Of a stretch of DNA of 64,000 nucleotides, positions 2,390 to 60,699 are shown one piece after another. Each line of letters begins with the position of its first letter. Position 1 is the stretch's first letter. The DNA comes from an uncultured delta proteobacterium. Lineage in GTDB: Bacteria > Desulfobacterota > Binatia > Binatales > Binataceae. A model generated the notes under the pieces. That model made no database searches and was not told where the DNA came from. It saw nothing but the letters and a program-made list of their open reading frames with translations. Made by a program: the position numbers and the translations under genes. The DNA lies in contig CAVXXK010000003.1 of NCBI GenBank assembly GCA_963765675.1, positions 448,001 to 512,000 of the forward strand. The letters run 5' to 3'.

Positions 2390-3655
2390 GTGGAGCAAAT
2401 CGAAAAATCGCACTCGCAGCGCACAACGATTATCGCCGGGATGGCGGGGAACATCCTCGAGTGGTACGACTTTTCGGTTTACGGATTTTTTGCCGAATCG
2501 ATCGGGCAGAACTTTTTTCCCTCGCATAGCCGCACCACCTCGCTGATGGAGGCGTTCGCCGTATTCGCGGCCGGCTTTCTGATGCGCCCGTTCGGAGCGC
2601 TGATCTTCGGCCATATGGGCGACCGCAAGGGGCGCGAGTACGCGCTCACCCTCTCGGTGCTTGCGATGGCGATCCCGACTTTTTTCATCGGACTGCTTCC
2701 GAGCTACAGCCAGATCGGCGTCACTGCAACGGTCGCGATGGTGGTCCTGCGCCTGGTGCAGGGCTTGTCGGTCGGCGGCGAATACACCACCTCGGTCGTG
2801 TTCATGGTCGAGCGAGCGCCGAGTGATCGCCGCGGAAGAATCGGCGCGTTCGGCGCCGCGGGCGCATTCGGCGGCGTGCTGCTCGGTTCGGCGGTGGGAG
2901 GAATCGTGGCGGCGCTGATGCCCTCGGCGGCGCTGCATCAGTGGGGATGGCGGATCCCGTTTCTGGCTGGAATCTCGATCGGCGTGGCCGGATATCTGAT
3001 GCGCCGCGAACTGCGCGTGGGCGCCACGATCGCACACGCTGCCCCGCCTCCGCTAGGCCAGGTTCTGCGCGCGCATTGGCCCACAATCCTCCAGGTTACG
3101 AGCTTCAAAGCGCTCGACGCGGTCGGCTTCTACCTGATGTTCGTGTACGCGACGACCTATCTGACGGAGATCGTCGGGCTGTCCAAAGGACACGCGATGG
3201 CGATCAACACGCTGGGGATGGCGGCCGCGATAATCGCGCTGCCGATCGCGGGCGCTCTGTCCGATCGCTTTGGGCGCAAGCCGCTTGCGTTCGGCGCTGC
3301 TCTCGGCGTGCTGCTCTTCGCGCGTCCGCTGTTCCATCTCCTGTGGCATCCGCGGCTCTCGGTTCCTCTGGCCGGACAAATGGGCTTTGCGATGATCATT
3401 GCGATGTTCGAAGGCGTGTCGGCGGCTGCCGCCGCCGAGGCGTTTCCCGCGAGCGTGCGATGCGTCGGCGTCGCGATCAGCCACAACCTGTGCATGGCGG
3501 TGCTGGGCGGGACGGCGCCGATGGTGGCGACCTACCTGATCGCGCGCACGCATGACGAGTTCGCGCCGCCGATATACCTGATGGCCGCCGCCGCGATTTC
3601 CGCGATCGTCGTGCTCACGATGCGCGAAACGGCGAAGCTTCCCCTGGCCGAGTGA
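2390..3655 (+). CDS. MFS transporter, metabolite:H+ symporter (ProP/CitA-like)
   Basis: GNILEWYDF, RPFGALIFGHMGDRKGR and QGLSVGGEY motifs; GTG 2390 preferred over the track start at 2288. Confidence 0.92.
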   Translation: MEQIEKSHSQRTTIIAGMAGNILEWYDFSVYGFFAESIGQNFFPSHSRTTSLMEAFAVFAAGFLMRPFGALIFGHMGDRKGREYALTLSVLAMAIPTFFIGLLPSYSQIGVTATVAMVVLRLVQGLSVGGEYTTSVVFMVERAPSDRRGRIGAFGAAGAFGGVLLGSAVGGIVAALMPSAALHQWGWRIPFLAGISIGVAGYLMRRELRVGATIAHAAPPPLGQVLRAHWPTILQVTSFKALDAVGFYLMFVYATTYLTEIVGLSKGHAMAINTLGMAAAIIALPIAGALSDRFGRKPLAFGAALGVLLFARPLFHLLWHPRLSVPLAGQMGFAMIIAMFEGVSAAAAAEAFPASVRCVGVAISHNLCMAVLGGTAPMVATYLIARTHDEFAPPIYLMAAAAISAIVVLTMRETAKLPLAE

Positions 3656-3710
3656 CGCGCGCTTTGCCCGCACGCTCCGGGGCGGATATTCTCGCACGCG
3701 AAGTATTATC

Positions 3711-6425
3711 GTGACGGTCAAGCAGACACCTCTTATTGCGCAGTACTTAAGCGTCAAGCAGCGAGTGCCCGACGCGATCCTGTTTTTTCGCCTGGGCGAT
3801 TTTTACGAGATGTTCTTCGAGGACGCCGAGGTCGGCGCGCGCGTGCTCGATATCCAGCTCACCTCGCGATCGAAAGACGGCGTGCCGCTGTGCGGTGTTC
3901 CCTACCACGCGGCCGAGCCGTACATCGCCAAGCTGATCAAGGCCGGCCACAAGGTCGCGATTTGCGAGCAGGGCGCGCAGGACAAGGGCGCCGACGGCAA
4001 GCCGCGCGGAATCATGACGCGGCAGATCGTGCGCGTGATCACGCCCGGCACCGTCGGCGAGGAGACGGTGCTGGTCTCAGGCGAGAAGAATTATCTGGTT
4101 GCGGTCGTGCGCGACAGCGCTCCAGACGCTCCTATGGAGGAAGGCCGCCCTCACCCGCGCGGCGATTCGCCGCGCCGCCCTCTCCCGGAGGGAGAGGGTA
4201 TGATCAAGAACGCCGCGCCGCGCGGAGGTGTCGCCGAGGGAGCGGCTACGACTGGTGGATTTGCGATCGCGGCGGTCGATGTTTCGACCGGAGAGTTTGT
4301 CGCGGCGCGAATCGGTAACCGGCATGGACTGGCCGAAGAGCTGGCGCGGCTGGCGCCGCGGGAAATCGTCTTTTTCGCGGGCGATCCAGAACTTAAAGTA
4401 ATCCTTGAAGAGCTCGGTGCGCCTGTCACCGCACTTGATTCCGACGCGGTGGCCGAGGCGAAAGCCGCGTTGACCGCGCGTTTCGGAGCGGCCGCCGCAC
4501 TCGACGAACCGATCGTCCTCGCCGCGGGCGCCGCTCTGATCTATCTGGAACGCAACTTCGGTCATAATCTCGCGCATCTGGCGCCGCCGACGGTTTATCA
4601 GGCCGCCGAATACATGATGGTCGATGAAACCACGCGGCGGCATCTCGAGCTGACCGCCTCGAGCGACGGCGCGCGCCGCGGCTCACTGCTCTCGATCCTC
4701 GACGAGACCGTGACCGCTCCCGGTGCGCGCACGCTCGCGAACTGGATCGTCTACCCGATGCTCTCGCCGCGCGCGATCGCGGATCGGCATGACGCGGTCG
4801 CCGAGCTGTTCGACGCCGACCTTGGCGGCGCGGTCGAAAGCGCGCTCAAGCGAATCGGCGACCTCGAGCGGCTCGCCGGACGGCTCGGCGCGATGCGCGC
4901 GTCACCGCGCGATTGTGTTCACCTGGCGCGGGCGCTCGATGCGGCGGCATCTCTTCGTGAATGGATGCGCGAGCGAAGCAGCTCGCTGATTCGCGACCTG
5001 GCGGCGCGGATCGCGCCCGATCCCGCGCTCGCTGCCCTGATCGACGCGACCCTCAGCGACGAGCCTCCCGTCAATCCGCGCGACGGCAATTTGATTCGCG
5101 CCGGCTACAGCGCCGAGGTTGACGAGCTGCGCGGGCTGTCGTCGGGCGCGCGCGAGGTTCTGGCGCGACTCGAAGTCTCGGAGCGCGAACGCACAGGAAT
5201 CGCCTCGCTCAAGGTCCGCTACAACAACGTGTTCGGTTACTATATCGAGGTCACCAAGACTCACATCGAGCGCGTGCCGGCCGACTACGAACGCAAGCAG
5301 ACGATCGCAACCGGTGAACGCTACACCACCGCGGCGCTCAAGGAACTCGAGCGCAAGATTCTCTCGGCCGAGAGCGGGCTCAAGGAACTAGAGCTGCAAC
5401 TTTTCACCGGCCTGCTGCGCGACCTGCAATCGCATAGCGCGGAAATCATGGCGGCGGCGCGCGCGATCGGTGAGTTCGACGCGCTCGCCTCGCTGGCGAA
5501 AGTGGCGCGACGGCGCGGCTACGTGCGCCCGGTGATGAATTCCTCGCGCCGGATCCGGATCCGCGACGGACGGCATCCTGTTCTCGAAGCCGGGATGCGC
5601 GCGGGCGAGTTCGTGCCCAACGACCTCGACGCCGACCCCGACACGCGCCAGCTCCTGCTGATCACCGGACCGAACATGGCGGGCAAGTCGACCTACCTGC
5701 GTCAGGTCGCTCTCATCGTGATCATGGCGCATCTCGGGAGCTTCGTGCCGGCTACCGAGGCCTCGATCGGAATCGTCGATTCGGTGATGACCCGAATCGG
5801 CGCGCGCGACGAGCTGCGCCGCGGCGAATCGACCTTCATGGTGGAAATGAGCGAGACCGCGCGGCTGCTCGGAGGCCTGACCGATCGGAGCCTCTTGCTG
5901 CTCGACGAGGTCGGGCGCGGCACCAGCACCTTCGACGGCCTTGCGATCGCGTGGGCGGTCGCCGAATACCTGCACGATTCGGCGCGCGCCAAGGTGCTGT
6001 TCGCTACTCATTTCCATGAGCTGACCGATCTTGCGCGCGAGCGTCCGCGAGTGAAGAATTTGAGCATGGCGGTGCGCGAGTGGGGTGGCGAGGTGCTGTT
6101 TCTGCGCCGGGTGATCGAGCAGCCGGCCTCGCGCAGCTATGGAATTGAAGTCGCGCGACTGGCCGGGCTACCCAACTCGATCATCGCTCGCGCCCGCGAA
6201 ATCCTCTCCAATCTCGAGCAAGGCGAGCTCGATGAAACCGGCGGCGTGCGCCTGGCGCACGAACGCAGCGCCGAGCGCGCAACCCCGCAGCTCGGCTTGT
6301 TCGCGCCAACTGAGAGCCGCGTTGTGGACGAATTGCGTGCCCTCGAGATCGATCGGCTGACTCCCGTCGATGCGCTAAACCTGCTCGCCGCGATACGCGC
6401 GCGGCTCAAGAAAGACGGCACCTGA
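3711..6425 (+). CDS. mutS: DNA mismatch repair protein MutS, with a ~45-aa repeat-derived insert
   Basis: TPLIAQY, LFFRLGDFYEMFFEDA, ITGPNMAGKSTY, STFMVEM, DEVGRGTST, FATHFHEL, SYGIEVA. Confidence 0.98.
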   Translation: MTVKQTPLIAQYLSVKQRVPDAILFFRLGDFYEMFFEDAEVGARVLDIQLTSRSKDGVPLCGVPYHAAEPYIAKLIKAGHKVAICEQGAQDKGADGKPRGIMTRQIVRVITPGTVGEETVLVSGEKNYLVAVVRDSAPDAPMEEGRPHPRGDSPRRPLPEGEGMIKNAAPRGGVAEGAATTGGFAIAAVDVSTGEFVAARIGNRHGLAEELARLAPREIVFFAGDPELKVILEELGAPVTALDSDAVAEAKAALTARFGAAAALDEPIVLAAGAALIYLERNFGHNLAHLAPPTVYQAAEYMMVDETTRRHLELTASSDGARRGSLLSILDETVTAPGARTLANWIVYPMLSPRAIADRHDAVAELFDADLGGAVESALKRIGDLERLAGRLGAMRASPRDCVHLARALDAAASLREWMRERSSSLIRDLAARIAPDPALAALIDATLSDEPPVNPRDGNLIRAGYSAEVDELRGLSSGAREVLARLEVSERERTGIASLKVRYNNVFGYYIEVTKTHIERVPADYERKQTIATGERYTTAALKELERKILSAESGLKELELQLFTGLLRDLQSHSAEIMAAARAIGEFDALASLAKVARRRGYVRPVMNSSRRIRIRDGRHPVLEAGMRAGEFVPNDLDADPDTRQLLLITGPNMAGKSTYLRQVALIVIMAHLGSFVPATEASIGIVDSVMTRIGARDELRRGESTFMVEMSETARLLGGLTDRSLLLLDEVGRGTSTFDGLAIAWAVAEYLHDSARAKVLFATHFHELTDLARERPRVKNLSMAVREWGGEVLFLRRVIEQPASRSYGIEVARLAGLPNSIIARAREILSNLEQGELDETGGVRLAHERSAERATPQLGLFAPTESRVVDELRALEIDRLTPVDALNLLAAIRARLKKDGT
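4141..4199 (+). repeat. family A palindromic repeat, truncated copy in frame inside mutS
   Basis: aaggccgccctcacccgcgc-ggcgattcgcc-gcgccgccctctcccggagggagagggt matches the intergenic copies at ~23075, 34107, 43682 and 47692. Confidence 0.9.
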
Positions 6426-6452
6426 CGCCCGAAGGATCATGCGGAGGCGGCG

Positions 6453-7745
6453 GTGGTGAGGAGCGGAAGAAGATCGCGCGCGGACACGAGGGTTGCGGCA
6501 CTCGCAGTTGTTGCGGGGATTTTGGCGATCCTTGGCGCGCAGGCCGCGCGCGCTTCGATCAATTCCGCCACGCTCAATTCCGCAACGATCACAAGGAGCG
6601 GAGCCGTGTCCGAGTTGCGCTTTGGATTTGCCGGCGTCGCGCCCAAATGGAACCTCAGTGCGCACGGGCAGGAGCTCTGGATCGATCTTCCGCGCACCCG
6701 CTCGCAAGTTCCGCCGCGGCCGGTCTACGGCCTCGAGGTCAAGCCAATCACTGCGCTGCGGGTCCTCGATACCGGCGACGGCGCCGCGCGGATCGTGCTC
6801 GAGGTTGACGGAAAGATCGACTACGCGATCGCGCGCTGGCCGCATCAGATTGTCCTGCGAGTCGCTCCGGCCGGCGCCGTGCCGAACCTCGCCGGAGCGC
6901 TGCTGGCGATGCGCGAGCCGCACGACGCGCCCTCGCCTGTCCGACTTTCAGCGCTGCGGCACGCGCCGATCCCCGTCGCGCGCGAGGTCGCGCCGCCGTC
7001 GGCGCCAATAATCGGCGTGGCGCAGGATCACCAGCGCGTGCGGGGGCATCCGCTGGTGATGATCGATCCCGGCCACGGCGGCTACGATCCGGGCACCAGC
7101 TCGGCCAGTGGAATTCAGGAGAAGACGCTTGCGCTGGAAATCGCGACCCGGGTTGCGAGCGCCCTCGAGGCGCGCGGAATCAACGCCGCGATGACGCGCA
7201 CGACCGACGTCTTCATCCCGCTCGGCGGGCGGACGAAAATCGCCAACGACGCGGACGCCGATCTGTTCGTCTCGATCCATCTGAATTCGAGCCCGAATCT
7301 CGCGACCACCGGAATCGAGGTCTACTATCTGAACAACACCACCGACCGTGCGACGATCCGCCTGGCGCGGATGGAGAATTCGCAAGCCGCGCGCGGCTAT
7401 GGCGCGCCCGCCGAGCCCAACTTAAACTACATCCTGACCGACCTGCGCCAGCAGTATAAGGCGACGGAGGCGGCGTCGCTTGCGCGGATGATCGATGCGC
7501 AGGCGGTGGCGGATTTGAACGCGGAATTTGGAATCGACGTGAACGCATTGGGAGCCAAGATGGGTCCGTTCTACATATTGGTCGGCGCGCAGATGCCGTC
7601 GGTGCTGATCGAGTGCGGGTTCCTGTCCAATGAAGGCGAAGCGCAGCGCCTCACGTCGGCGCGGTATCAGCAAACCCTCGCCGACGGTATCGCCGACGCG
7701 ATCGTCCATTACCTCAAGGCCGACGCCGCCGTGGGCAATCTGTGA
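6453..7745 (+). CDS. N-acetylmuramoyl-L-alanine amidase (AMIN-like + Amidase_3)
   Basis: N-terminal signal/TM segment; IDPGHGG, QEK, FVSIHLN and VLIECGF zinc-amidase motifs. Confidence 0.93.
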   Translation: MVRSGRRSRADTRVAALAVVAGILAILGAQAARASINSATLNSATITRSGAVSELRFGFAGVAPKWNLSAHGQELWIDLPRTRSQVPPRPVYGLEVKPITALRVLDTGDGAARIVLEVDGKIDYAIARWPHQIVLRVAPAGAVPNLAGALLAMREPHDAPSPVRLSALRHAPIPVAREVAPPSAPIIGVAQDHQRVRGHPLVMIDPGHGGYDPGTSSASGIQEKTLALEIATRVASALEARGINAAMTRTTDVFIPLGGRTKIANDADADLFVSIHLNSSPNLATTGIEVYYLNNTTDRATIRLARMENSQAARGYGAPAEPNLNYILTDLRQQYKATEAASLARMIDAQAVADLNAEFGIDVNALGAKMGPFYILVGAQMPSVLIECGFLSNEGEAQRLTSARYQQTLADGIADAIVHYLKADAAVGNL

Positions 7746-10483
7746 GCGGCGGTATCCGAACCTCGGAGGCGGCGCGCCGGCCCGCTCCGCGCGGCGAAGA
7801 TTTTTTGCTGCGCGAGTTCGAAGCCACGCGCACTCCCGGTGCGACCGCGCGCGCCTACGTGGCCTCTGTCCGCGAGGAGCTGGGCGAGATTCATTTCAAG
7901 GGCGCCAGCGGCGGCGAGATCGTGCGGCTCTACACCGCGGCAATGGACGATCTGCTGCGCGCGCTGTATCGCTATGCCGACGCCGAGCATGGCCGCCGCT
8001 TTCCCAAGCTCCACCAGCGAATCGCGATCGTCGCGCGCGGCGGTTACGGCCGAAGCGAGCTCAATCCGCAATCCGACGTCGATCTTCTGTTCCTGCACGA
8101 TTACAAGCGCGGCCCGTACGTCGAGATCGTAACCGAGATCATTCTGCACGCGATGTGGGACGCGGGCCTGGTCGTCGGACACGGCGTGCGCACCGCGCGC
8201 GAATGCGTGCGCCTGGCCAACGACGATCTGAAAGAAAAAACCGCGCTGCTCGACGCGCGCTATCTGGGCGGCGACGAGAAACTCTACGCCGATCTCGACA
8301 AGCTCCTAATCGCCGAAGTGCTGAACCGCAACCAGCAGAAGTTTTTCAAAGCCAAGCTCGAAGAGAGCCGCGAACGCCACGCGAAGTACGGCGACTCGAT
8401 CTACCTGCTCGAGCCGCAGCTCAAGGAAGGCGAAGGCGGCCTACGCGATCTTCACACCGCGATGTGGCTGGCGAAGGTCAAGTACAAGGTTCATTCGCTC
8501 GAAGAGCTGGTGCAAAAGGCGGTCATCACCGACGACGAGCGCGCCAGCGTCGTTGAGGCGCGCGATTTCCTGTGGCGCGTGCGCAACTCGCTGCACTTCA
8601 TCAACCATCGCCATTTCGATCAGCTGACCTTCGAGATGCAGGAGCGAATCGAGCCAATGCTCGGAATGGCGCCGCTCGACGGGCAGACCGCGGGCTCGGC
8701 GCTGATGCGCGCGTACTACCAGCATGCGAGCACGATCTATCAATTCGCCGAGGGGCTGATCGCGCGAGTGGTCGAGGGTCCCGCGGCGCGCGGCTTTCTG
8801 CGCCGCACTCCCGTCAGGCAAATTCGGCCCGGCGTGCTGGTGCAGCAGAAGCTGCTCGCGATCGGCGACCCGGATCTGTTCAAAGAAGATCCGCTTAACC
8901 TGATCGCGATCTACGCCGACTGCCAGGCGCAGGACGTCGAGCTCTCGGGCAGCGCCTACCAGCTCGTGCGCGACAACCTGGGTTTGATCGACGACGCGAT
9001 GCGCCATAACCCGGCGACCGGCAAAGCCTTGATGCAGATTCTGTCGCATCGCGGACGCGTCGCCGACACGCTCGAGGCGATGCATCGCGCGGGCGTGCTG
9101 GGCGCGATCATCCCCGAGTTCGGAAATCTCTACGCGCGCGTGCTGCACGACCTTTACCACATCTATACCGTCGATCGTCATTCACTCGCCGCCGTGCGCG
9201 AGCTCGAGCGCCTGCGCGCCGGAGAGTTCAAGGACGCGACTCCTCTGCTGACCGAAGTCGCGCGCGAGCTGGATTGCCTGCCGCTGGTTTTCCTTGCGCT
9301 GCTCCTGCACGACATCGGCAAGGGCCATGGCCATGACCATCACGAGCTCGGCGCGACTCTCACCGCCGAGGTCTCGAACCGCTTGGGACTCGACCCCGAG
9401 GAAATCGATCTGGTGGTGTTCCTGGTGCGCAACCATCTGATGATGTCGCAGGTCGCGCAGAAAGGAGATATCGACGACCAGCGCACGGTGGACGAATTCG
9501 CGCGGCAGGCCGGTTCAATCGATCGCCTGAAGGCGCTGTACCTCTTGACCTACGCCGACATGCGCGCGGTCGCGCCCAAGGTTTACAACAACTGGCGCGA
9601 CATGCTGCTCTCCGATCTCTACATGCGCGCGCTCAAACTGATGGAGCAGCGCGATCGCGAGGCTGTCGATCCCGCGCGGCGGCTGGCAACGGTAAAGAAC
9701 TCGGTGCGCGAGCAGCTCGCGCCGTCTGGCGCGCCCAAAGAGGAGATCGAGGCGTTCCTCGACGAGATGCCCGAGCGCTATTTCTTCACCGTCCCGGAAA
9801 ACGACATCGCGCTGCATTTTGATCTGATGCGCGCGCTCGGCGACCGGCCCGTGGTCACGCGCAATCGCCATTTTCCGGATCTCGAATTCAGCGAATTTAT
9901 CGTGGTGACGCGCGACCGGCCCGGACTGTTCTCGATGATCGCGGGCGCGCTCACCGCGAATAATCTCAACATCCTCTCCGCGCGAATCACCACCCGCGCG
10001 GGCGGAATTGCGCTCGACGTGTTCCGCGTGTCGCATCTGATGGGCGCAGGCGTGATGGCGATGGAGGAAGACCGCTGGCAGCGCGTGCAGCGCGACCTCG
10101 AACGCGCAATCACCGGCGAGCAGGATATCGCGCAGATCGTCGCGGCTGCTCACCATGTGAAAGATGCCGGACGCCGCTTCACCCGCCGCGTCGCGACCGA
10201 AGTCACCCTCGACAATCGCACCTCGGAGCAGTTCACCGTGCTCGACGTGTTCACCCAGGACCGCGTCGGGCTTCTTTTCACGATCACGCACACGCTGTTC
10301 GAGCTCGGGATGCGGATTCATCTGGCGCGCATCTCGACCAATGCCGACCAGGCACTCGACGTTTTTTACGTGAGCGATAGCGACGGCGAAAAGATCACCG
10401 ACCTCGCGCGGATGCGCCTGCTCAAGGAGACGCTCGAGGCGCGGCTGGCCGAAAATCCCGCGCAAGGGAGCGGCACGCCTTGA
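7742..10483 (+). CDS. glnD: [protein-PII] uridylyltransferase/uridylyl-removing enzyme
   Basis: ARGGYGRSELNPQSDVDL nucleotidyltransferase motif, LKEGEGGLRD, HD domain (YTVDRH...LLHDIGKG), two ACT domains (DRPGLF, DRVGLL). Confidence 0.97.
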   Translation: MSGGIRTSEAARRPAPRGEDFLLREFEATRTPGATARAYVASVREELGEIHFKGASGGEIVRLYTAAMDDLLRALYRYADAEHGRRFPKLHQRIAIVARGGYGRSELNPQSDVDLLFLHDYKRGPYVEIVTEIILHAMWDAGLVVGHGVRTARECVRLANDDLKEKTALLDARYLGGDEKLYADLDKLLIAEVLNRNQQKFFKAKLEESRERHAKYGDSIYLLEPQLKEGEGGLRDLHTAMWLAKVKYKVHSLEELVQKAVITDDERASVVEARDFLWRVRNSLHFINHRHFDQLTFEMQERIEPMLGMAPLDGQTAGSALMRAYYQHASTIYQFAEGLIARVVEGPAARGFLRRTPVRQIRPGVLVQQKLLAIGDPDLFKEDPLNLIAIYADCQAQDVELSGSAYQLVRDNLGLIDDAMRHNPATGKALMQILSHRGRVADTLEAMHRAGVLGAIIPEFGNLYARVLHDLYHIYTVDRHSLAAVRELERLRAGEFKDATPLLTEVARELDCLPLVFLALLLHDIGKGHGHDHHELGATLTAEVSNRLGLDPEEIDLVVFLVRNHLMMSQVAQKGDIDDQRTVDEFARQAGSIDRLKALYLLTYADMRAVAPKVYNNWRDMLLSDLYMRALKLMEQRDREAVDPARRLATVKNSVREQLAPSGAPKEEIEAFLDEMPERYFFTVPENDIALHFDLMRALGDRPVVTRNRHFPDLEFSEFIVVTRDRPGLFSMIAGALTANNLNILSARITTRAGGIALDVFRVSHLMGAGVMAMEEDRWQRVQRDLERAITGEQDIAQIVAAAHHVKDAGRRFTRRVATEVTLDNRTSEQFTVLDVFTQDRVGLLFTITHTLFELGMRIHLARISTNADQALDVFYVSDSDGEKITDLARMRLLKETLEARLAENPAQGSGTP

Positions 10484-11439
10484 GCGATCTCGCGTGGAAC
10501 GAATTGATCGACGCGCATCTGGATCGGCAGGCGGCCGAGCGCGGTCTCGCGCGCCATTCGCTCGAGGCTTACTCGCGCGACCTGCGCGACTTTCATGATT
10601 TCTGCGATCGGCGCGGCGCCGAGCCGAAAAATCTGGACGCGGCGCTGATTACCGCCTACCTCGAAGACCTGGGCGCGCGCTACGCGGTCGCGACCCAGCG
10701 CCGGCATCTGGCGAGTATCCACGGACTCGCGCGCGAAATGGTCGATCGCAAGATTATCGAACGCGACCCTGCCCCGTCGGTAAAGCTGCGGGCTCATCCG
10801 CGAAAGCTTCCACGCACGCTCACCCGGCGCGACGTCGAGATGCTGATCGATGCGATCGATACCTCGACCACGCGCGGCCTGCGCGACCGCGCGATGCTCG
10901 AGATGGCGTACGGATGCGGCCTGCGCGTCTCGGAGCTGGTGAATATGCAGATGACGCAGATAAATCTGCGCGAGGGCGTGATCGCCGCGTTCGGCAAAGG
11001 CTCGAAGGAGCGGCTCGTTCCGATCGGCGGCGCCGCCACGCGCGCTCTGGCCGCCTATTTGAAACGCCGCGACGCCGAGCTGCGGCAAGCGTCGGAGGGA
11101 AAGCGCAAACGCAGCGCCGCGATGCGCCGGACCAACGCCGTGTTCGTCACGCGCCTTGGACGCGCGATGACCCGGCAGGGATTTTTCAAGGCGCTCAAGC
11201 AGTGGGCGGCTGGCGACCCGCGCACCGCGTGGATCAGTCCGCACACGCTGCGCCATTCGTTCGCGACCCATCTGCTCGAAGGCGGCGCCGACCTGCGTGC
11301 CGTGCAGGAGATGCTCGGGCATAGCGATATCTCGACCACGCAGATCTATACCCATCTGACGCGCTCGCATCTGCGCAAAGTGCATCGCACTTTCCATCCG
11401 CGCGCCACCCGCGAGCAGGCCGCAAAAGGCAGCGACTGA
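10480..11439 (+). CDS. xerD: site-specific tyrosine recombinase XerD
   Basis: GLRVSEL, GKGSKER, SPHTLRHSFATH, GADLRAVQEMLGH, TTQIYTH; adjacent to scpAB. Confidence 0.9.
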   Translation: MSDLAWNELIDAHLDRQAAERGLARHSLEAYSRDLRDFHDFCDRRGAEPKNLDAALITAYLEDLGARYAVATQRRHLASIHGLAREMVDRKIIERDPAPSVKLRAHPRKLPRTLTRRDVEMLIDAIDTSTTRGLRDRAMLEMAYGCGLRVSELVNMQMTQINLREGVIAAFGKGSKERLVPIGGAATRALAAYLKRRDAELRQASEGKRKRSAAMRRTNAVFVTRLGRAMTRQGFFKALKQWAAGDPRTAWISPHTLRHSFATHLLEGGADLRAVQEMLGHSDISTTQIYTHLTRSHLRKVHRTFHPRATREQAAKGSD

Positions 11440-19107: not shown

Positions 19108-19264
19108 AGTGTCATTCCCGCGCGTGGCTGCCGCAGGAGAGCCTGTCCTGAGCCTGCCGAAGGAAATCCCGTTCTTATTCGCCGACCGTCCGCCACTGGC
19201 GGGTGAGTGCAAGTGCGCCTCGGGATTCCTCGCACGCGGCAGCCACGCGCGCGGGAATGACACT
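19108..19264. repeat. family B MITE/REP-like element with ~27-bp terminal inverted repeats
   Basis: agtgtcattcccgcgcgtggctgccgc ... gcggcagccacgcgcgcgggaatgacact, with an internal gcctgtcctgagcctgccgaagga unit. Confidence 0.8.
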
Positions 19265-22530: not shown

Positions 22531-22995
22531 ATGACTGATGGCAAGCGGGCCGGGCTTTACCGGCCCGCGCTCTTTTTGCTCGCCGCCGCCGCGATTCTGT
22601 GCGCGGCGGCGTGCTATTCATCAAACTACCGCAAGGAACTCTCCGCGAATACGGATCTGATCTCCCAGCTCGCGGACAAGCTCGCCGACTACTGCAACGC
22701 GGGCTTCATGATCGAGAACCGGCAGGTCTCGTCGGAAGAGATGGGCGAATTTTATTACGCGCTGAAGAAGGCGCGCGGCCTCTCCGCGACGACGACGCGC
22801 GACTCCGCACGCGCCTCGTATCGCGACTTCGACGCGATGCTCGACGCCTACCAGAGCTTCGTCCGCAACGCGGACGAGTACCGCTTGGCGGGCGCTCGCG
22901 ATCCCGCGAAGCTCGCCGCGCTGATGCGGCAGCATCAAGCGGTCGAGTCCGCCGCCGCAAAAGTCCGCGCCGACTTGGCGAAGGAGAATGGATGA
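22531..22995 (+). CDS. hypothetical exported protein, probable lipoprotein
   Basis: Hydrophobic signal ending AAAC; helical body; host-like codon usage. Confidence 0.65.
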   Translation: MTDGKRAGLYRPALFLLAAAAILCAAACYSSNYRKELSANTDLISQLADKLADYCNAGFMIENRQVSSEEMGEFYYALKKARGLSATTTRDSARASYRDFDAMLDAYQSFVRNADEYRLAGARDPAKLAALMRQHQAVESAAAKVRADLAKENG

Positions 22996-23014
22996 CCCGT
23001 CGTCCGTCGCCTGA

Positions 23015-23275
23015 TCCCTCGCCCTGAAAGGGCGAGGTACCAGAAGGCGCGATTAACAAAGAAAGCTCTGAGCATGGCCGCCCTCACCCGCGCGTCACGG
23101 CGATTGCTGAAAGAAGCAATCGCCGCGCCGCTTGCCCTCTCCCGGAGGGAGAGGGAATCTCAGAGACGCCGCGCCGCCCGCGTGCCCATGGCACCTCCCG
23201 GAGGGAGAGGGTATCGGCAAAGCTTGCGTCGCCCAAGTGACGGTGGCACCTCCCCGGAGCGAGAGGGAATTTCAG
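23015..23275 (+). repeat. family A repeat array between convergent genes
   Basis: ccctcgccctgaaagggcgagg arm, a full ccctcacc-hairpin-ccctctcccggagggagaggg unit and two further degenerate cctcccggagggagaggg units. Confidence 0.88.
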
Positions 23276-24742: not shown

Positions 24743-24789
24743 TAGATCGCTGCGCGCGAGGGATCCCGGACGAAAGGCCGTTGCCTCAG

Positions 24790-25006
24790 ACGCGGGCTCG
24801 GAGCACGGACGCCTCGGGATTTCTCCCTTCGGTCGAAATGACGGATGTGGGTTTGGTGCATGAGTATCGTAGTCTCAGCCGAGCCCGCGATCGTCATTCC
24901 GAGCCCAGGGCGAGGAATCCCGAGGCGTCCATGCTCCGAGTCCGCGTATCATGCTGTGCTCTCTCGTCGGAGATTCCTCGCGCGGCAGCCACGCGCGGGA
25001 ATGACA
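24790..25006. repeat. family B composite repeat
   Basis: ~32-bp inverted repeat 24790-24821/24916-24947, gtcattcc...ggaatcc units, and gattcctcgcgcggcagccacgcgcgggaatgaca matching 19224-19262. Confidence 0.8.
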
Positions 25007-30567: not shown

Positions 30568-32262
30568 TTGAAACGGCACATGACACTGGGCGACTTTCTG
30601 GTCGCATACCTGCGCAAAATCGGCGTCGATACGATTTTCGGAATCCCGGGCGATCTCGCGCTCAAATTGTTCTTCGCTCTGGGCAAGCGCCACGGCATCA
30701 GGATCGTCACGCTCTCGCACGAGCCGGGAATCGGGTTCGCGGCCGACGGATACGCGCGCGCAACCGGCAAGATCGGGGTCGCGTGCGTCACCTACGGCGC
30801 GGGCGGCCACAACATGGTCAACCCGGTGGCGGGATCGTTCTCCGAGCGCGTGCCGATTCTGATCTTCTCCGGCGGTCCCGGCGAAGAAGAGCGCAAGCTC
30901 GGCACGCTTATCCATCATCAGGCCCGCGAGATCGAATCGCAGCATCGCATCTACCAGGAGGTCACGTGCGCGTCGCGCGTGCTGACCGATCCAAACACCG
31001 CGGCGCGGGAGCTGCACGCGGTGGTCCGCGCCATCTGGGCCGAGCAGCGACCCGGCTACGTCGAGATTCATCGCGACATGGTCGATCGGGTGATCGAAGT
31101 GCCCGAAGAGCTGATCGAGTGGGACGGCCATCTGCACTTCAGCGAATCGGATTCGCGCAAGGTCGAGGAAGCCGCGCGCGAGGCCGCCGAGATGTTCAAC
31201 GCGAGCCGCCACCCGGTCGTGATCGCGGGAATCGAGATTCATCGCTACAAGGCCGCGCACGAGTTGGTCGAGCTGGCTGAAAAGATGGGCGCGCCAGTGT
31301 GCACCACGGTGCTTGGCAAGGGCGCCTTCCCGATGGACCATCCGCAATACATGGGCGTGCACGTGGGGCCGATCAGTCCCGCGCCGATCGTCGAGCGGAT
31401 GGACGAGGCTGACTTTGTGCTCAACCTCGGGTGCCTCAAGACGGACATGAATTTCGGTAATCGTCCGCCGCGCGTGATCCAGGACCAGTCGGTATGGGCG
31501 GTCGATCGCAAGGTGGACGTGAAGTACCACACCTATATCGATGTGGGCGTGCGCGATTTCGTGCGCGCGATGCTGCACCAGAAGCTGCGCCATCACGAGG
31601 AGCGGGTCGCCTACGCCGACAACCTTGGCGACGTCTCGAAGGCGGAGAACAGGCAGATTCGCGTTGCGCAGATTTTGGTCGCGGTCAACCAGTTTCTCGC
31701 CACGCACAAAAACTACCTCGTCGTCACCGAGTCGGGCGACATGCTGTTCGGCGGACTCGACGTGCGCGTGCCGCATCACAGCACCTACCTGGCGCAGGGG
31801 TTTTACGCCTCGATGGGATTTGCGGTGCCGGCCGCGATGGGCGCGCAGATGGGCGGAGGGATGCGGCCGATCGTGCTGTGCGGCGACGGCGGCTTTCAGA
31901 TGACCGGTCCGGAAATCTCGCACGCACCGATGATGGGCATCAATCCGATCGTGGTGATCATCAACAATGGCGGCTGGGGCATCTTCCGGCCAATCGTCGA
32001 GCGGCGTGAGCTGCTCGACCTGCCGCCGTGGCCGTATGCGAAGCTTGCGCGCGATTTTGGCGGCGCGGGTTTCGAGGCGCGCACGCTGGCGCAGCTCCGC
32101 CGCGCGCTTGCGTCGGCGCATCGCTCGCGCTCGTTTGCGATTATCGACGTGCGCGTCGAACGCGACGATTTGTCGCCGGTCTCGGTCAAATATATTCGCG
32201 CCGCGGCCAAACGCTCGCAGGCTCCGGGCGCAAGCGCCGGGCGCGGGAGCAAACTCTTATGA
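30568..32262 (+). CDS. ThDP-dependent 2-oxo-acid decarboxylase (indolepyruvate/phenylpyruvate decarboxylase-like)
   Basis: FGIPGD, HEPGIGFAADGYAR, TYGAG, HHQ, GDGGFQMTG...NNGGW; TTG 30568 after AGGAGG. Confidence 0.9.
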   Translation: MKRHMTLGDFLVAYLRKIGVDTIFGIPGDLALKLFFALGKRHGIRIVTLSHEPGIGFAADGYARATGKIGVACVTYGAGGHNMVNPVAGSFSERVPILIFSGGPGEEERKLGTLIHHQAREIESQHRIYQEVTCASRVLTDPNTAARELHAVVRAIWAEQRPGYVEIHRDMVDRVIEVPEELIEWDGHLHFSESDSRKVEEAAREAAEMFNASRHPVVIAGIEIHRYKAAHELVELAEKMGAPVCTTVLGKGAFPMDHPQYMGVHVGPISPAPIVERMDEADFVLNLGCLKTDMNFGNRPPRVIQDQSVWAVDRKVDVKYHTYIDVGVRDFVRAMLHQKLRHHEERVAYADNLGDVSKAENRQIRVAQILVAVNQFLATHKNYLVVTESGDMLFGGLDVRVPHHSTYLAQGFYASMGFAVPAAMGAQMGGGMRPIVLCGDGGFQMTGPEISHAPMMGINPIVVIINNGGWGIFRPIVERRELLDLPPWPYAKLARDFGGAGFEARTLAQLRRALASAHRSRSFAIIDVRVERDDLSPVSVKYIRAAAKRSQAPGASAGRGSKLL

Positions 32263-33882
32263 GCGACTCAGCCGACCGTCATCACGCGCGGCATCGCGAC
32301 TTCAAGTGGAGCGTGCCCGAGCATTTCAATTTCGGAGCGATCGTCGATCACTTCGCGGGCGATCCCAACCGGACCGCGCTGTTGTGGGAGGATCAGGACG
32401 GCAAACGCGCGCGCCTGACCTACGCGAATATGCGCGCGCAATCCAATCAGATCGCGGGCGTGCTCGAGGCCTCGGGCCTGCGCCGCGGCGATCCGATCCT
32501 GCTGGTGCTGCCACGCATCACGATGTGGCAGGCGGCGTATATCGGCGCGCTAAAGATGGGCGCGATCGTGATTCCGTGCACCTCGATGCTGCGGGAGAAG
32601 GATCTTGATCTATCGCGCGAATCATTCCGGCGCACGCGCGATTATTGCCTCCACTGAAAACGCCTCGATGGTCGCGGAGCTGCGCGGTCAATGCCCGGGC
32701 TTGAATCATTTTCTGATCACCGGGAGCTCGCGTTCGGGATGGCAGGGATTACCCGAGCTGATGCAGCAAGCGTCACCGGATTACAAGCCAATAGCTACTC
32801 GCGCGAGCGACCCCGCAATTTGCTATTACACTTCCGGCACTACTCGCGAACCCAAAGCCGTCCTGCATAGCCATGCCTACACCTGGAGCCATCAGTATAC
32901 CGGCCGAAACTGGCTGGACGTGGCGGCGGACGGCGTCCACTGGACGACATCCGACACCGGATGGGCCAAAGCCGCGTACGGAGTGCTGTTCGGGCCGTGG
33001 ATGAACGGGGTCACGACCTTCATGTACAACGGCCGCTTCGAGCCCAAACGCGAGCTCGAGTTGCTCGCGCGCTATAACATCACTACTTTCTGCGCCCCGC
33101 CGACTGAGTATCGGATGCTGATCAAGGAGGATCTGTCCAAATATCAGTTTCCGAAACTGCGCCATTGCACCGGAGCCGGCGAGCCGCTCAACCCGGAAGT
33201 GATCGAGGTCTGGAAAGATCAGCTCGGGCATGTGATTCACGACGGTTACGGACAGACCGAAACGATCATCCTGGTGGCGAACATGCCCGGGATGGAAGTA
33301 AAGCCGGGCTCGATGGGCCTGCCGTTTCCCGGGCACGACGTGCACGTCGTCGATGAAGACTTGCGCGAAGTAAAAGACGGCGAGGTCGGGCAGATAGCGG
33401 TGCGCGTCGCGCCCGAGCGCCCGCCCTCGCTATTCCTGGAGTACTGGAAGAACCCCGCCGAGACCGCCGCAGTTTTTCAGGGCGATTACTATTTGACCGG
33501 AGACCACGCGACACGCGATGCGGACGGATACCTGTGGTTCGTCGGACGCGCCGACGACGTGATCATCTCAGCCGGCTACCGTATCGGCCCGTTCGAGGTC
33601 GAGAGCGCGCTGCTGGAGCATCCGGCGGTGATCGAGTCGGCGGTGGTGGCGAGTCCCGACGCCGATCGCGGCTCGATCGTGAAGGCGTTCGTGCGGCTCA
33701 ACGCGGAAGCGCGCAAATCCGACGCGCTCGCCCGCGAGCTGCAGGAGCACGTCAAGCGCATCACCGCGCCGTACAAGTACCCGCGCGAGATCGAGTTCGT
33801 CGACGAGCTGCCGAAGACGGTCAGCGGGAAGATCCGCCGGGTAGAACTCCGCAAACGAGAGGAAGACCGCAAGAGAAAATAG
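32259..33882 (+). pseudogene. acyl-CoA synthetase (ACSM/acetate-CoA ligase-like), split by a +1 frameshift near 32605 (may be a sequencing error)
   Basis: N-terminal half (FKWSVPEHFNF...ALKMGAIVIP...EKDL) and C-terminal half (IYRANHS, YTSGTT, DGYGQTE, IGPFEVES, PKTVSGKI) are in different frames; removing one base from gatcttgatc restores a single ORF. Confidence 0.85.
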
Positions 33883-34106
33883 CCACCTCGGAGCGATAAG
33901 CTTCACTCCCGCAGATATCGCTCGAGATCTCGCTCGGCCAGTATCTTCATGTTGCGCGCCCGCTGAGCGCGTGCGATCAGCTCAGCCGTGCGCGCTGTGT
34001 CCTTCGAGGCAGAGCTCTGCATACCGCATCATCGTAGGACCGACAGCCCTCGGAGTCCAACAAGAAATCGAATGATGAATGCCGGCGAGATGATCTTGTG
34101 CTGATA

Positions 34107-34280
34107 CCCTCTCCCACCGGGAGAGGGCGGCGCGGCGCGGCGATTGCTTCCCTTAGCAATCGCCGTGACGCGCGGGTGAGGGCGGCCTTGCGCAGAATTT
34201 TCTTCTAATCGCGCGGCGCCACGCGCCGCGCTGAATTCGGACCCTCGCCTAACCTCTCCCTTTCAGGGCGAGGGATCAGA
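34107..34280 (-). repeat. family A repeat, full doublet, between convergent genes
   Basis: ccctctcccaccgggagaggg...gcgattgct/agcaatcgc hairpin...gggtgaggg...ccctcgcctaacctctccctttcagggcgaggga. Confidence 0.9.
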
Positions 34281-34293
34281 AACAGCGGGCGAG

Positions 34294-47531: not shown

Positions 47532-47590
47532 GTGCTTACCTATTCATATAAACGCCCGTCACCGCAAAAGGTCACGCGCGTTGATGTCCG

Positions 47591-47779
47591 ATCCCTCGCC
47601 CGCTGCTGCCTCGCCCTGAAGGGGAGAGGTTAGGTGAGGGACATTTTTCAGCGCGGCGCGCAGCGATGCGCGATTAAATGAAGATGCGGAGCAAGGCCGC
47701 CCTCACCTACGCGTCACGATACTTGCGAAAGAAACGCAAGCATCACGCCGCGTTGCCCTTTCCCGGAGGGAGAGGGGGT
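47591..47779 (+). repeat. family A repeat, full doublet, between divergent sigma and tetR genes
   Basis: cctcgccctgaaggggagaggttaggtgaggg...aaggccgccctcacc...gatacttgcg/cgcaagcatc hairpin...ccctttcccggagggagaggg. Confidence 0.9.
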
Positions 47780-47805
47780 TTCGGATGGATTGGCATTTTG
47801 TCCCC

Positions 47806-47851
47806 TTGACACAATTTGGCCAGGCGTTCAATATTTTGACCATGCGGCCAG
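47806..47851 (+). promoter_or_regulatory. sigma70 promoter with two TetR-type operator palindromes; probable leaderless start
   Basis: TTGACA (47806)-17 nt-CAATAT (47829)-7 nt-ATG; TTGGCCaggcGTTCAA (47816-31) and TTGACCatgcGGCCAG (47836-51). Confidence 0.6.
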
Positions 47852-59245: not shown

Positions 59246-59270
59246 ATAAGGCTGAACTGTTCAGCCTTAT
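59246..59270. promoter_or_regulatory. perfect 25-bp palindrome
   Basis: ATAAGGCTGAAC-T-GTTCAGCCTTAT. Confidence 0.6.
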
Positions 59271-59310
59271 AATTTGTCCACAAATAGTTTACAATGCTGT
59301 GTCCAGTTTT

Positions 59311-59568
59311 ATCCCTCGCCCTGGAAGGGAGAGGTTAGGTGAGGGTCCGAATTCAGCGCGGCGCGCAAGCGACGCGCGATTATAAAAAATCTGCCTGGCA
59401 GAATTTTAGGCGCGCGGCAAACGATGCCGCGCGCAGATCGGTCCCTCACCTAACCTCTCCCTTTCAGGGCGAGGGATCAGAAAAGGCACCCTCACCCACG
59501 CGTCACGATGCTTGCGAAAAAAAACGCAAGCATCGCGCCGCGTCGCCCTCTCCCGGAGGGAGAGGGTA
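59311..59568. repeat. family A composite: inverted doublet plus hairpin unit
   Basis: 35-bp inverted arms 59311-59345/59443-59477, then ccctcacc-gatgcttgcg/cgcaagcatc-ccctctcccggagggagaggg. Confidence 0.92.
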
Positions 59569-59586
59569 TGGGCGGAAACGCAAGAA

Positions 59587-59608
59587 CACAGGCTGAAGCC
59601 TGTGCCAC
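59587..59608 (-). repeat. GTGG-type REP
   Basis: Minus strand reads GTGG-CACAGGCTTCAGCCTGTG: a tetranucleotide followed by a palindrome, the architecture of RAYT-associated REPs; single copy in the window. Confidence 0.6.
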
Positions 59609-60652: not shown

Positions 60653-60699
60653 TCTATGAACGTCGCGCGGGAGCAGTGCGCAATAAAAAGAGCGGAGTA

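What the first reader, a model, noticed from the sequence alone, without database searches (positions are those of the whole stretch)
4117..4253. Intergenic palindromic repeat translated in frame inside MutS
Seen: between NYLVAVVRD and GFAIAAVDVSTGEF, normally a short beta-turn of the connector domain, MutS carries ~45 extra residues (APDAPMEEGRPHPRGDSPRRPLPEGEGMIKNAAPRGGVAEGAATT). Their DNA (4141-4199) is a shortened copy of the family A repeat found six times between genes in this window. The inner hairpin is collapsed to ggcgattcgcc, the frame is kept, and all MutS motifs are intact. Known: Rickettsia palindromic elements insert in frame into surface loops. Inference: a REP-like element has entered a DNA-repair gene and is tolerated; the RNA hairpin or the peptide loop could affect MutS level or activity.
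Basis: partly seen in the sequence, partly recalled or inferred. Interest (0 to 1): 0.8.

Follow-up and report, generated by a model that had tools for sequence, protein, structure and literature searches.

The report
Repeat element translated inside MutS loop
A small palindromic repeat that normally lies between genes has become part of the coding sequence of the mismatch-repair protein MutS in one lineage of Binataceae bacteria, where it forms a loop that changes length even between close relatives; this is real, but it is a kind of event already described for other repair genes.

Summary
MutS (3711-6425, 904 aa) carries 45 extra residues (137-181, nt 4119-4253) exactly between E. coli MutS S140 and K141. 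Their DNA belongs to repeat family A, which has six full-length intergenic copies in the window. A covariance model built from those six finds the MutS copy at 56.3 bits, E 1.9e-10. The retained 58 nt are 57/58 identical to copy c23, with 24 nt (8 codons) missing, mostly the top of hairpin 1.

New points: nearly the whole insert derives from a mosaic of left arm, collapsed hairpin 1, hairpin 2, linker and a degenerate second hairpin-2 unit. The insert is shared by one well-supported Binataceae subclade. Members of that subclade carry 28-149 aa here, against 15-18 aa in 110 of 128 orthologues. Some relatives also carry translated B-type units. The loop diverges faster than the rest of MutS and holds all the indels.

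Best reading: an old in-frame REP-like insertion, tolerated and decaying. In-frame palindromic elements in repair genes are published (PMC3733652), so this is a new member of a known kind. No functional effect is shown.

The parts
3711..6425 (+). mutS gene (904 aa, stop included), all five MutS domains
   Evidence: ORF list; Pfam MutS_I/II/III/IV/V, E 1.6e-82 to 1.7e-07; orthologues named MutS from Candidatus Binataceae
4119..4253 (+). extra 45 codons (residues 137-181) in the first hairpin turn of domain II (connector)
   Evidence: unmatched between E. coli MutS S140 and K141; Pfam MutS_II resumes at residue 182; absent from 110 of 128 orthologues
4116..4133 (+). left end of the loop (SAPDAP); possible remnant of a B-type unit or spacer (inference only)
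   Evidence: not significant at DNA level (z at most 0.4); aligns with APD/TPDPFP of relatives' loops at protein level
4134..4156 (+). family A left arm (…GGCCGCCCTCACCCGCG)
   Evidence: alignments with c43 and c23
4157..4175 (+). collapsed hairpin 1 (arms 4157-4165 / 4167-4175); CGTCA and the hairpin top are missing
   Evidence: gaps of 5 and 15 nt against c23; 8-bp stem; I2
4178..4198 (+). hairpin 2, perfect 9-bp palindrome with 3-nt loop, read as PLPEGEG
   Evidence: I3; 0 mismatches to the copies at 59546 and 60760
4199..4215 (+). linker shared with the c23 and c60 mosaics
4216..4251 (+). degenerate second hairpin-2 unit (72% identical to 4168-4203, 48-nt spacing)
   Evidence: D1; alignment A7; 4200-4262 vs c23 scores 26, shuffle max 22 in 200
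4187..4202 (+). Shine-Dalgarno-like GGAGGGAGAGGG plus in-frame ATG (M164), created by the repeat; use unknown
   Evidence: sequence; two database ORFs (P0127, P0130) begin at the equivalent Met
23077..23158 (+). intergenic family A copy c23 (subfamily A1), within mosaic 22991-23270
   Evidence: CM 102.3 bits
34104..34186 (-). intergenic family A copy c34 (A1)
   Evidence: CM 102.2 bits
43679..43760 (-). intergenic family A copy c43 (A1; 99% complementary to c23 over 82 nt)
   Evidence: CM 99.7 bits; I2
47696..47779 (+). intergenic family A copy c47 (A2)
   Evidence: CM 99.8 bits
59485..59569 (+). intergenic family A copy c59 (A2)
   Evidence: CM 109.5 bits
60699..60783 (+). intergenic family A copy c60 (A2), followed by an extra hairpin-2 unit at 60790-60824
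   Evidence: CM 106.4 bits; D1
23180..23270 (+). two extra hairpin-2 units (23180-23214, 23236-23270; 56-nt spacing) after c23
   Evidence: D1
59426..59483 (+). family B copy directly upstream of c59; other B copies at 23011-23038, 34225-34282, 47603-47657 and 59311-59365
   Evidence: (D7, D13, I5-I7)

Best explanation
A mosaic of REP-like palindromic units was inserted into the DNA for the turn between the first two strands of the MutS connector domain. The mosaic comprised a B-type hairpin, a spacer, a family A element with two hairpins, and a further hairpin-2 unit. It is the same architecture as the intergenic cluster at 22991-23270. The insertion happened once, in the ancestor of one Binataceae subclade, in an orientation and phase that carries no stop codon.

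Selection on MutS has kept the reading frame, but the inserted sequence is otherwise under little constraint. It has lost pieces through in-frame deletions: the top of hairpin 1 with its CGTC motif, most of the B-type unit in this genome, and the second unit in a sister strain. In other lineages it has gained tandem copies. The peptide is rich in proline, glycine and charged residues and probably forms a flexible loop on the protein.

Shown: the homology to the repeat family, the position of the insert, the empty sites in orthologues, the restriction to one clade, the length variation, and the faster divergence of the loop.

Inferred: a single origin, the mosaic composition of the ancestor, surface exposure and disorder, and the absence of a function.
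For: Homology of the insert to family A:
- Local alignment z 18.8.
- 57/58 identity with 24 gapped nt.
- CM 56.3 bits, E 1.9e-10, from a model that excluded the MutS copy.
- Internal second unit and collinearity with the c23 and c60 mosaics.
- Full-length copies c23, c43 and c59 are open in the MutS phase, with both arms in one frame.

Position: between E. coli S140 and K141, inside Pfam MutS_II.

Empty sites:
- 110 of 128 orthologues have 15-18 aa.
- 60 of 71 rows of A4 have 17-20 aa, including all 31 locus-derived rows.
- L001 has an empty site.

One clade: in a tree of 28 rows built without the loop, all 12 rows with 28-149 aa fall in one clade (SH-aLRT 99). That clade also holds 4 rows that do not cover the loop. 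11 of the 12 rows outside it have 15-16 aa. The 28-aa allele is nested beside a 69-aa allele.

Shared derived state: the collapsed hairpin-1 peptide PRG..PRR occurs in P0001, P0129, P0140, P0004, P0002 and P0139.

Mosaic ancestor:
- P0002 loop residues 9-76 are collinear in one frame with window 23007-23216 (E 0.008), and residues 24-66 with the c60 region (E 7e-5).
- P0138 carries both an A translation and a DLTPSPFPKGKG unit.

Relaxed constraint:
- P0001 vs P0129: core 96.5%, loop 74.3%, 14 gap columns in the loop and none in the core.
- P0004 vs P0134: core 97.0%, loop 70.9%.
- Loop composition in P0001: 16% P, 16% G, 31% DEKR, 10% hydrophobic. The rest of the protein has 4, 7, 26 and 32%.

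Not an artefact: homologous inserts occur in independent records from NCBI, JGI and ENA.

Family absent where the insert is absent: no copy in 56 kb of L001, L002 and L067. By hand calculation, the window's density of 7 copies per 64 kb predicts about 6.
Against: - The retained part is 57/58 identical to present intergenic copies, although the clade spans about 15% MutS amino-acid divergence.
- Between deep-branching alleles the A core is conserved at 13-16 of 18 residues, while the rest of the loop is at 7/31 to 13/31 for P0001 against P0002, P0139 and P0004. Fisher p is 0.0001-0.03 in 6 of 8 pairs. The pairs were chosen for a recognisable core, they are not independent, and alignment outside the core is poor.
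- This fits homogenisation or constraint better than free decay.
- No DNA of the insert-bearing relatives was available, so single origin rests on protein alignments and a quick tree.
- No structure model was obtained, so surface exposure is an inference.
- None of the alleles seen in the clade has returned to the 15-18 aa state.
Confidence: 0.7

Rival explanations
1. The element core inside MutS is actively maintained. This could happen by gene conversion from the dispersed genomic copies, or because the hairpin matters as DNA or RNA, for example as a binding site, in mRNA stability or in translation pausing. The insert would then be more than a decaying passenger.
For: - 57/58 identity to c23 and c34.
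- Hairpin 2 has 0 mismatches to the copies at 59546 and 60760.
- The A core is conserved at 13-16 of 18 residues between alleles whose remaining loop is 23-53% identical.
- PRRPLPEGEG is identical in P0001, P0140, P0002 and P0004.
- Hairpin 1 of the family is kept by three compensatory pair changes between subfamilies, with 98.3% of cells paired against 43-55% in slid controls.
- The 68-nt MutS copy folds better than all 200 shuffles as DNA (z -3.08).
Against: - The core has decayed in P0129, P0134, P0121, P0003, P0005 and P0139.
- In the pair P0004 vs P0134 the core is no better conserved than the rest (13/18 vs 26/37, p 1.0).
- The 136-nt RNA fold is not unusual for its composition (z -1.6, 13 of 200 shuffles as good).
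- The allele P0122/P0126 lacks a recognisable core altogether.
- The pair choice favours this reading.
Confidence: 0.2
2. The loop is an insertion hotspot. The different alleles arose from several independent insertions of A-type and B-type elements rather than from one ancestral mosaic.
For: - Content differs strongly between alleles. B-type units occur in P0121, P0002, P0139, P0003 and P0005, with three in P0005, but not in P0001, P0129, P0140 or P0004.
- The fragment P0175, from the lineage with the VAVTG-type loop, ends in GRGNVTPDHFPQE at the same site.
- P0040 and P0073 have unrelated expansions at this site.
- The window's copy is nearly identical to the intergenic copies.
Against: - All expanded alleles of this type form one clade.
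- The same 8-9-codon collapse of hairpin 1 is shared by six alleles, while none of the six intergenic copies in the window is collapsed.
- The order of B-type unit, spacer and A element is the same in the alleles and in the intergenic mosaics.
Confidence: 0.1
3. The insert is an assembly artefact, with a repeat wrongly joined into mutS.
For: Repeats do break or misjoin assemblies. Two database ORFs (P0127, P0130) start just after hairpin 2, which may reflect contig breaks at the repeat.
Against: - The frame is kept and the flanks are collinear with orthologues.
- Homologous inserts occur in independent records. The P0001 cluster has 11 members from NCBI, ENA, JGI and Logan, and the P0002 and P0004 clusters hold 3 and 4.
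- The MutS copy has its own deletions, which no intergenic copy shares.
Confidence: 0.01
4. The resemblance is chance or compositional (GC-rich, low complexity), or the loop is native and seeded the repeats.
For: The window is 62% G+C, and short P/G/R-rich matches are common in tblastn.
Against: - z 18.8 against dinucleotide shuffles and CM E 1.9e-10.
- 0 of 100 shuffles give any core match.
- Outgroups lack the loop.
- The family has hairpin features that the MutS copy has partly lost.
Confidence: 0.01

Closest known systems
Intragenic GTAG/CGTC-tagged REPs (Di Nocera et al. 2013, PMC3733652; abstract and passages read, 4 supplementary files searched)
   Same: These are short palindromic repeats, mostly intergenic and often clustered in mosaics. 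Some lie entirely within known ORFs in frame. [quoted passage not shown] All six intergenic A copies here have CGTC just 5' of hairpin 1.
   Different: - MutS is not in their text list, and 'mutS', 'mutL' and 'mismatch' give 0 occurrences in the 4 supplementary files held.
- The host phylum is different.
- Stems are 10-12 bp and loops 6-8 nt, against 8-9 bp and 4-5 nt for the four CGTC families.
- CGTC is partly inside an outer stem here.
- The unit has two hairpins and is about 84 nt long.
Rickettsia palindromic elements (RPE); passages in PMC10969869 and PMC3767692 read, the original Ogata papers recalled only
   Same: Palindromic elements of 100-150 bp inserted in frame into pre-existing ORFs without destroying them, adding a peptide segment.
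   Different: No sequence relation was tested. RPEs decorate many genes of one genome, whereas here only MutS was found carrying the element. The search for other hosts was limited. The strong length variation at one site among close relatives is not a feature I saw described for RPEs.
Prokaryotic MITEs with in-frame ORF fusions (review PMC10969869, passages read)
   Same: Small non-autonomous repeats. [quoted passage not shown]
   Different: No terminal inverted repeats or target-site duplication were identified around the MutS copy. The element is GC-rich, whereas MITEs are typically AT-rich.
BIMEs of E. coli, mosaics of REP units (recalled, no call)
   Same: REP-type units combined in varying order and orientation with linkers. 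This resembles the A and B mosaics at 22991-23270, 34099-34282, 47583-47779 and 59311-59569.
   Different: Unrelated sequences. BIMEs are extragenic.

Membership tests
MutS (MutS1-type mismatch recognition protein) | Domains I-V in order | tested here: met
   Pfam MutS_I 6-118, MutS_II 182-289, MutS_III 307-596, MutS_IV 465-554, MutS_V 650-836. E. coli and Taq MutS chains matched.
MutS (MutS1-type mismatch recognition protein) | Mismatch-binding and ATPase motifs intact (which motifs define MutS is recalled) | tested here: met
   GDFYE, GPNMAGKST, LLLLDEVGRGTS and THFHEL are present in the translation and fall in invariant columns of 71 MutS rows.
REP (repetitive extragenic palindromes) | Short palindromic stem-loop units present in many dispersed, mostly intergenic copies | tested here: met
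   Seven A copies, three extra hairpin-2 units and five B copies in 64 kb. Stems of 9-12 bp fold better than shuffles in 5 of 6 intergenic copies. Only the window was examined, not the genome.
REP (repetitive extragenic palindromes) | Structure conserved through compensatory change | tested here: met
   3 of 11 hairpin-1 pairs changed on both sides between subfamilies A1 and A2. 98.3% of cells paired against 43-55% when slid. This is effectively one split of six sequences.
CGTC-tagged REP superfamily (PMC3733652) | Unpaired CGTC tetranucleotide at one end of the stem-loop | tested here: inconclusive
   CGTC lies 2 nt 5' of hairpin 1 in 6 of 6 intergenic copies. Its first bases pair in a predicted outer stem. 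The motif is deleted in the MutS copy.
CGTC-tagged REP superfamily (PMC3733652) | Stems of 8-9 bp beginning with A-T pairs, loops of 4-5 nt, CCA-like tail | tested here: not met
   Hairpin 1 has stems of 10-12 bp and loops of 6-8 nt. Features as stated in the passage read.
REP/RAYT system | Associated tyrosine transposase (RAYT/TIRYT) gene flanked by the repeats | tested here: inconclusive
   No transposase or Y1 family among 85 long ORFs of the window scanned against Pfam. The only recombinase is a XerC/D-type integrase at 10480-11436. The rest of the genome was not available.
Rickettsia palindromic elements | In-frame insertion into a pre-existing ORF that stays open | tested here: met
Rickettsia palindromic elements | Sequence membership in an RPE family | not tested
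   No RPE sequence was at hand. Rfam has no match at gathering score in the window and only sub-threshold plant miRNA hairpin matches.
Rickettsia palindromic elements | Insert lies in a surface loop of the host protein | not testable with these tools
Indirect support only: the turn residues vary freely among orthologues, between conserved strands.
MITE | Terminal inverted repeats and target-site duplication | tested here: inconclusive
   No flanking direct repeat around 4119-4253. The element ends are blurred by decay, and the intergenic copies were not examined for duplications.

The most novel reading that the evidence does not exclude
The repeat mosaic inside mutS is not a mere passenger. 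It would act as an indel-prone, conversion-fed hotspot that tunes mismatch repair. Occasional out-of-frame alleles would give heritable and reversible mutator states. Alternatively, use of the repeat-made ribosome-binding-like site and ATG at 4187-4202 would produce a MutS lacking the mismatch-binding domain. The unusual conservation of the element core would then reflect selection to keep the switch.
Probability: 0.05. Interest if true: 0.8.

Novelty: new member of a known kind. Interest (0 to 1): 0.4.

Why it matters
It adds MutS, the first protein of mismatch repair, to the published list of replication and repair proteins decorated by translated palindromic repeats. It also extends the phenomenon to the uncultured Binataceae.

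The series of natural alleles, with 28 to 149 residues at one turn of the connector domain against 15-18 in most orthologues, is a ready-made tolerance map. It covers a domain that must swing out to recruit MutL (PMC4521584).

It is also a clean case for asking how an intragenic repeat ages. The core stays close to the family consensus in some lineages and decays in others. That can separate gene conversion, constraint on structure and neutral decay once the relatives' DNA is compared.

For annotation, the loop should not be mistaken for a new MutS domain. The repeat probably breaks short-read assemblies inside mutS.

Tried and rejected
- **Structure prediction.** Each retry came after the required twenty other calls. 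No fold, fold search or exposure measure was obtained.
- **Rfam.** No match at gathering score in the whole window. With E up to 1 on 59250-60900 there were only sub-threshold matches to plant miRNA precursors and a snoRNA, which I read as generic hairpins.
- **Plasmid collection.** blastn of 23060-23220 found no match.
- **Other host proteins, search 1.** phmmer of the in-phase translation of c23 against 1.84 billion representatives gave 3 hits at E up to 0.001. One is an unrelated zinc-finger repeat protein. Two are short ORFs that look like translated intergenic repeats.
- **Other host proteins, search 2.** The P0002 loop (77 aa) against proteins of 543-1729 aa gave 2 of 115 candidates at E up to 1, both MutS. 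Both searches are weak for short, diverged or other-frame copies, so absence elsewhere is not shown.
- **Out-of-frame or split alleles.** 120 short N-terminal MutS fragments were listed, and 16 of them lacked a normal loop. The frameshifted ones have the ordinary short loop. Many fragments come from very long contigs, and P0157 is from the contig of L001, whose MutS is itself frameshifted, so I do not trust them. None is a close relative of the window's gene.
- **P0127 and P0130.** These ORFs start at the Met after hairpin 2. This could reflect contig breaks at the repeat, a gene-caller choice or real alleles, and I could not decide.
- **Left flank 4100-4140 and right flank alone.** There is no significant DNA similarity to the mosaics on the left (z at most 0.4). 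On the right the similarity is moderate (score 26, shuffle max 22).
- **Terminator and promoter scan of 3500-6600.** Nothing above expectation.
- **Literature.** The Mendillo 2009 paper on the MutL interface is not held. Whether the turn at 140/141 touches MutL remains open.
- **Closed or exhausted sources.** The DNA of the insert-bearing relatives stayed unseen.
Full report
**What is there.** The window is 62% G+C. The ORF 3711-6425 (+) encodes a 904-aa MutS with all five Pfam MutS domains. Its relatives are named MutS of Candidatus Binataceae. Neighbouring genes are ordinary chromosomal ones: an MFS transporter, an Amidase_3 enzyme, GlnD, a XerC/D-type integrase, ScpA, ScpB and DnaB. Against solved MutS structures the alignment runs to query residue 136, which is E. 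coli S140, and resumes at query 182, which is K141. Residues 137-181 (nt 4119-4253) are therefore extra. Pfam MutS_II likewise resumes at residue 182, profile position 12.

**The repeat family.** The 22-nt core of hairpin 2 occurs 9 times with up to 3 mismatches, at 8 places, against none in 100 shuffles. Six full-length copies of about 84 nt lie between genes. Each has a left arm, a CGTC motif, hairpin 1 (10-12 bp stem, 6-8 nt loop), a short spacer and hairpin 2 (a perfect 9-bp stem with a 3-nt loop). There are two subfamilies: A1 (c23, c34, c43) and A2 (c47, c59, c60). They differ by three compensatory pair changes in hairpin 1. 98.3% of cells pair, against 43-55% when the partners are slid.

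**Mosaics.** The A copies sit in mosaics with a second family, B (five copies), and with extra hairpin-2 units at 23180-23214, 23236-23270 and 60790-60824. Three mosaics lie between convergent genes and three between divergent ones. No Rfam family matches, no plasmid record matches, and no transposase was found among 85 long ORFs of the window.

**The MutS copy.**
- Local alignment of 4100-4270 with c23 scores 75, against 19.7 ± 2.9 (max 29) for shuffles.
- A covariance model made from the six intergenic copies alone finds 4144-4201 at 56.3 bits, E 1.9e-10. The six training copies score 99.7-109.5 bits.
- The 58 retained bases are 57/58 identical to c23 and c34, so the copy belongs to subfamily A1. 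24 bases are missing relative to c23, in gaps of 5, 15 and 4 nt, which is 8 codons.
- The missing bases include CGTCA and the top of hairpin 1. An 8-bp stem remains, and hairpin 2 is intact.
- c23, c43 and c59 are open in the very phase used by MutS, with both arms in one frame.
- Homology continues through the linker to 4224. A degenerate second hairpin-2 unit follows at 4216-4251, 72% identical to 4168-4203, as in the c23 and c60 mosaics.
- So nearly all of the 135 extra bases are element-derived. Only 4116-4133 has no significant DNA match.

**Orthologues.** At the time, 135 proteins were held, and 128 of them had both flanking anchors. Of these, 110 have 15-18 residues between the anchors and 18 have 28-149. 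The window has 60. In alignment A4 (71 rows), 60 rows have 17-20 residues between the equivalents of L129 and T193. That includes all 31 rows translated from genome loci, 28 of them from other phyla. The turn residues vary freely (PAADS, GAEGT, RSENS and others) between conserved strands. This is what one expects of an exposed hairpin turn, but it is an inference. The genome loci L001, L002 and L067 (56 kb together) lack this insert. They also have no A or B copy by regex or by covariance model, where the best hit is 16.1 bits at E 0.32. By hand calculation, the window's density would predict about six.

**History.** I built a tree from 28 chosen rows with the loop removed. It places all 12 rows with 28-149 residues in one clade, with SH-aLRT 99. 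The clade also holds 4 rows that do not cover the loop. Of the 12 rows outside it, 11 have 15-16 residues and P0040 has an unrelated 33.

The loop differs in almost every lineage within the clade:
- 60 aa here.
- 46 aa in P0129, where the second unit is lost.
- 49 aa in P0140.
- 69 aa in P0121.
- 28 aa in P0122/P0126. This allele is nested next to P0121, so it is a secondary deletion.
- 88 aa in P0002.
- 68 aa in P0003.
- 66 aa in P0004 and P0134.
- 149 aa in P0005, with three tandem B-type units.
- A further variant in P0139.

Four length states occur within the cluster at 90% identity or above. Six alleles share the collapsed hairpin-1 peptide, and none of the window's intergenic copies is collapsed. 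This argues for one origin. The P0002 loop is collinear, in one frame, with the intergenic mosaic at 23007-23216 and with the c60 region. An unrelated short database ORF, P0138, carries both an A translation and the B-type unit seen in the relatives' loops. The ancestral insert was therefore probably a mosaic of about 200 nt, of which this genome keeps 135.

**Constraint.** In close pairs the loop diverges much faster than the core: 74.3% against 96.5%, and 70.9% against 97.0%. All gap columns in those pairs lie in the loop. The loop is rich in P, G and charged residues and poor in hydrophobic ones. This supports a tolerated, probably flexible segment.

There is a point against simple decay. 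The element core is about as conserved as MutS itself between deep-branching alleles (13-16 of 18 residues). The rest of the loop is not. The window's copy is also nearly identical to the intergenic copies. Gene conversion from dispersed copies, or constraint on the hairpin, may be acting in some lineages. In others the core has decayed. I chose pairs with a recognisable core, so this result is only suggestive.

**Function.** Nothing here shows an effect on MutS.
- The 136-nt RNA fold is not exceptional (z -1.6).
- The 68-nt copy folds better than all 200 shuffles as DNA (z -3.08).
- The repeat creates a Shine-Dalgarno-like run and an in-frame ATG at 4187-4202. Two database ORFs start at the equivalent Met, but contig breaks at the repeat explain that equally well.
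- No trustworthy out-of-frame allele was found.
- The connector domain (E. coli residues 128-266) rotates when the clamp forms, and MutL interface 2 buries Q211/Q212 (PMC4521584, passages). Whether the turn at 140/141 is near that face could not be determined.

**What is known.**
- In-frame insertion of palindromic repeats is established. RPEs are found in pre-existing ORFs without destroying the frames (PMC3767692 passage). 44 RPE integrations in R. conorii genes are cited in a review, which also calls in-frame MITE fusions 'not unusual' (PMC10969869 passages).
- Di Nocera et al. report intragenic GTAG/CGTC REPs, many of them in replication and repair genes, with clusters encoding 43-82 aa (PMC3733652 abstract and passages). 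MutS is not in their text list. 'mutS', 'mutL' and 'mismatch' have 0 occurrences in the 4 supplementary files held.
- Searches for 'palindromic element' + in-frame + mutS, mutS + miniature inverted-repeat + intragenic, 'Rickettsia palindromic' + mutS (the only hit is an author's name) and Binatia + repeat + palindromic found no report of this case in the library.

**Verdict.** The finding is real and well supported as an in-frame REP-like mosaic in MutS. It is a new member of a known kind. It has one added twist, a hypervariable site of single origin, and one unexplained feature, the pristine core.

Noticed in passing
window 32028-33879 (+): An AMP-binding enzyme gene appears split into two overlapping ORFs in different frames. 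32028-32654 matches PF00501 positions 6-85. 32605-33879 matches positions 87-376 plus AMP-binding_C. This is a frameshift, either a pseudogene or a sequencing error.
   Followed up: no
window 47766-47787: The right arm of A copy c47 (a GGAGGGAGAGGGGG run) ends 6 nt before the ATG of a TetR-family ORF (47785-48465). The repeat may supply that gene's ribosome-binding site.
   Followed up: no
window 4187-4202; proteins P0127, P0130: Hairpin 2 plus the next codon form a Shine-Dalgarno-like run and an in-frame ATG (M164) inside mutS. Two 741-aa database ORFs from close relatives start at the equivalent Met. The cause is undecided: a contig break at the repeat, a gene-caller choice, or a real allele.
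   Followed up: partly
window 59311-59480: Two family B copies in inverted orientation (52-nt arms, 88% complementary, 63 nt apart) form a long hairpin. The only Rfam signal is a sub-threshold match to a plant miRNA precursor model (52 bits against a gathering score of 168).
   Followed up: partly
window 24753-24984 and 19110-19240: A third repeat appears here. It is an inverted repeat with 73-nt arms (79% complementary, 86 nt apart). 30-32-nt pieces of it match 19110-19139 and 19209-19240 (I4, I14, I20).
   Followed up: no
MutS domain I, about residues 88-96 of the window's protein; proteins P0004, P0091, P0106, P0117: A second variable site lies after the conserved CEQ motif. It carries independent inserts of about 4 to 25 residues in other Binataceae MutS. 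The window's protein has only a short extension there.
   Followed up: no
protein P0175 (136-aa fragment): This MutS fragment comes from the lineage with the VAVTG-type loop. It ends, at the same turn, in GRGNVTPDHFPQE, which resembles the B-type unit. This may be an independent insertion at the same site, but the fragment is truncated there.
   Followed up: partly
protein P0005: The MutS loop holds three tandem B-type units (IDLTPDPFPHG.GN…), giving 149 residues between the anchors. It is the longest allele seen.
   Followed up: no
protein P0073: There is an unrelated expansion at the same place. It looks like a tandem duplication of the second strand (…GFAPAANTGYALAANTAYALAAL).
   Followed up: no
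L001:10001-12590: The mutS of this Binataceae genome is out of frame from about codon 375 onward, with stops in the given frame. P0157 is a 432-aa ORF from the same contig. This is probably an assembly error in a long-read genome.
   Followed up: no
L079:17320-17412: The A-element covariance model gives a weak hit (21.1 bits, E 0.022) in an Acidobacteriota locus. This may be a related hairpin repeat or chance.
   Followed up: no
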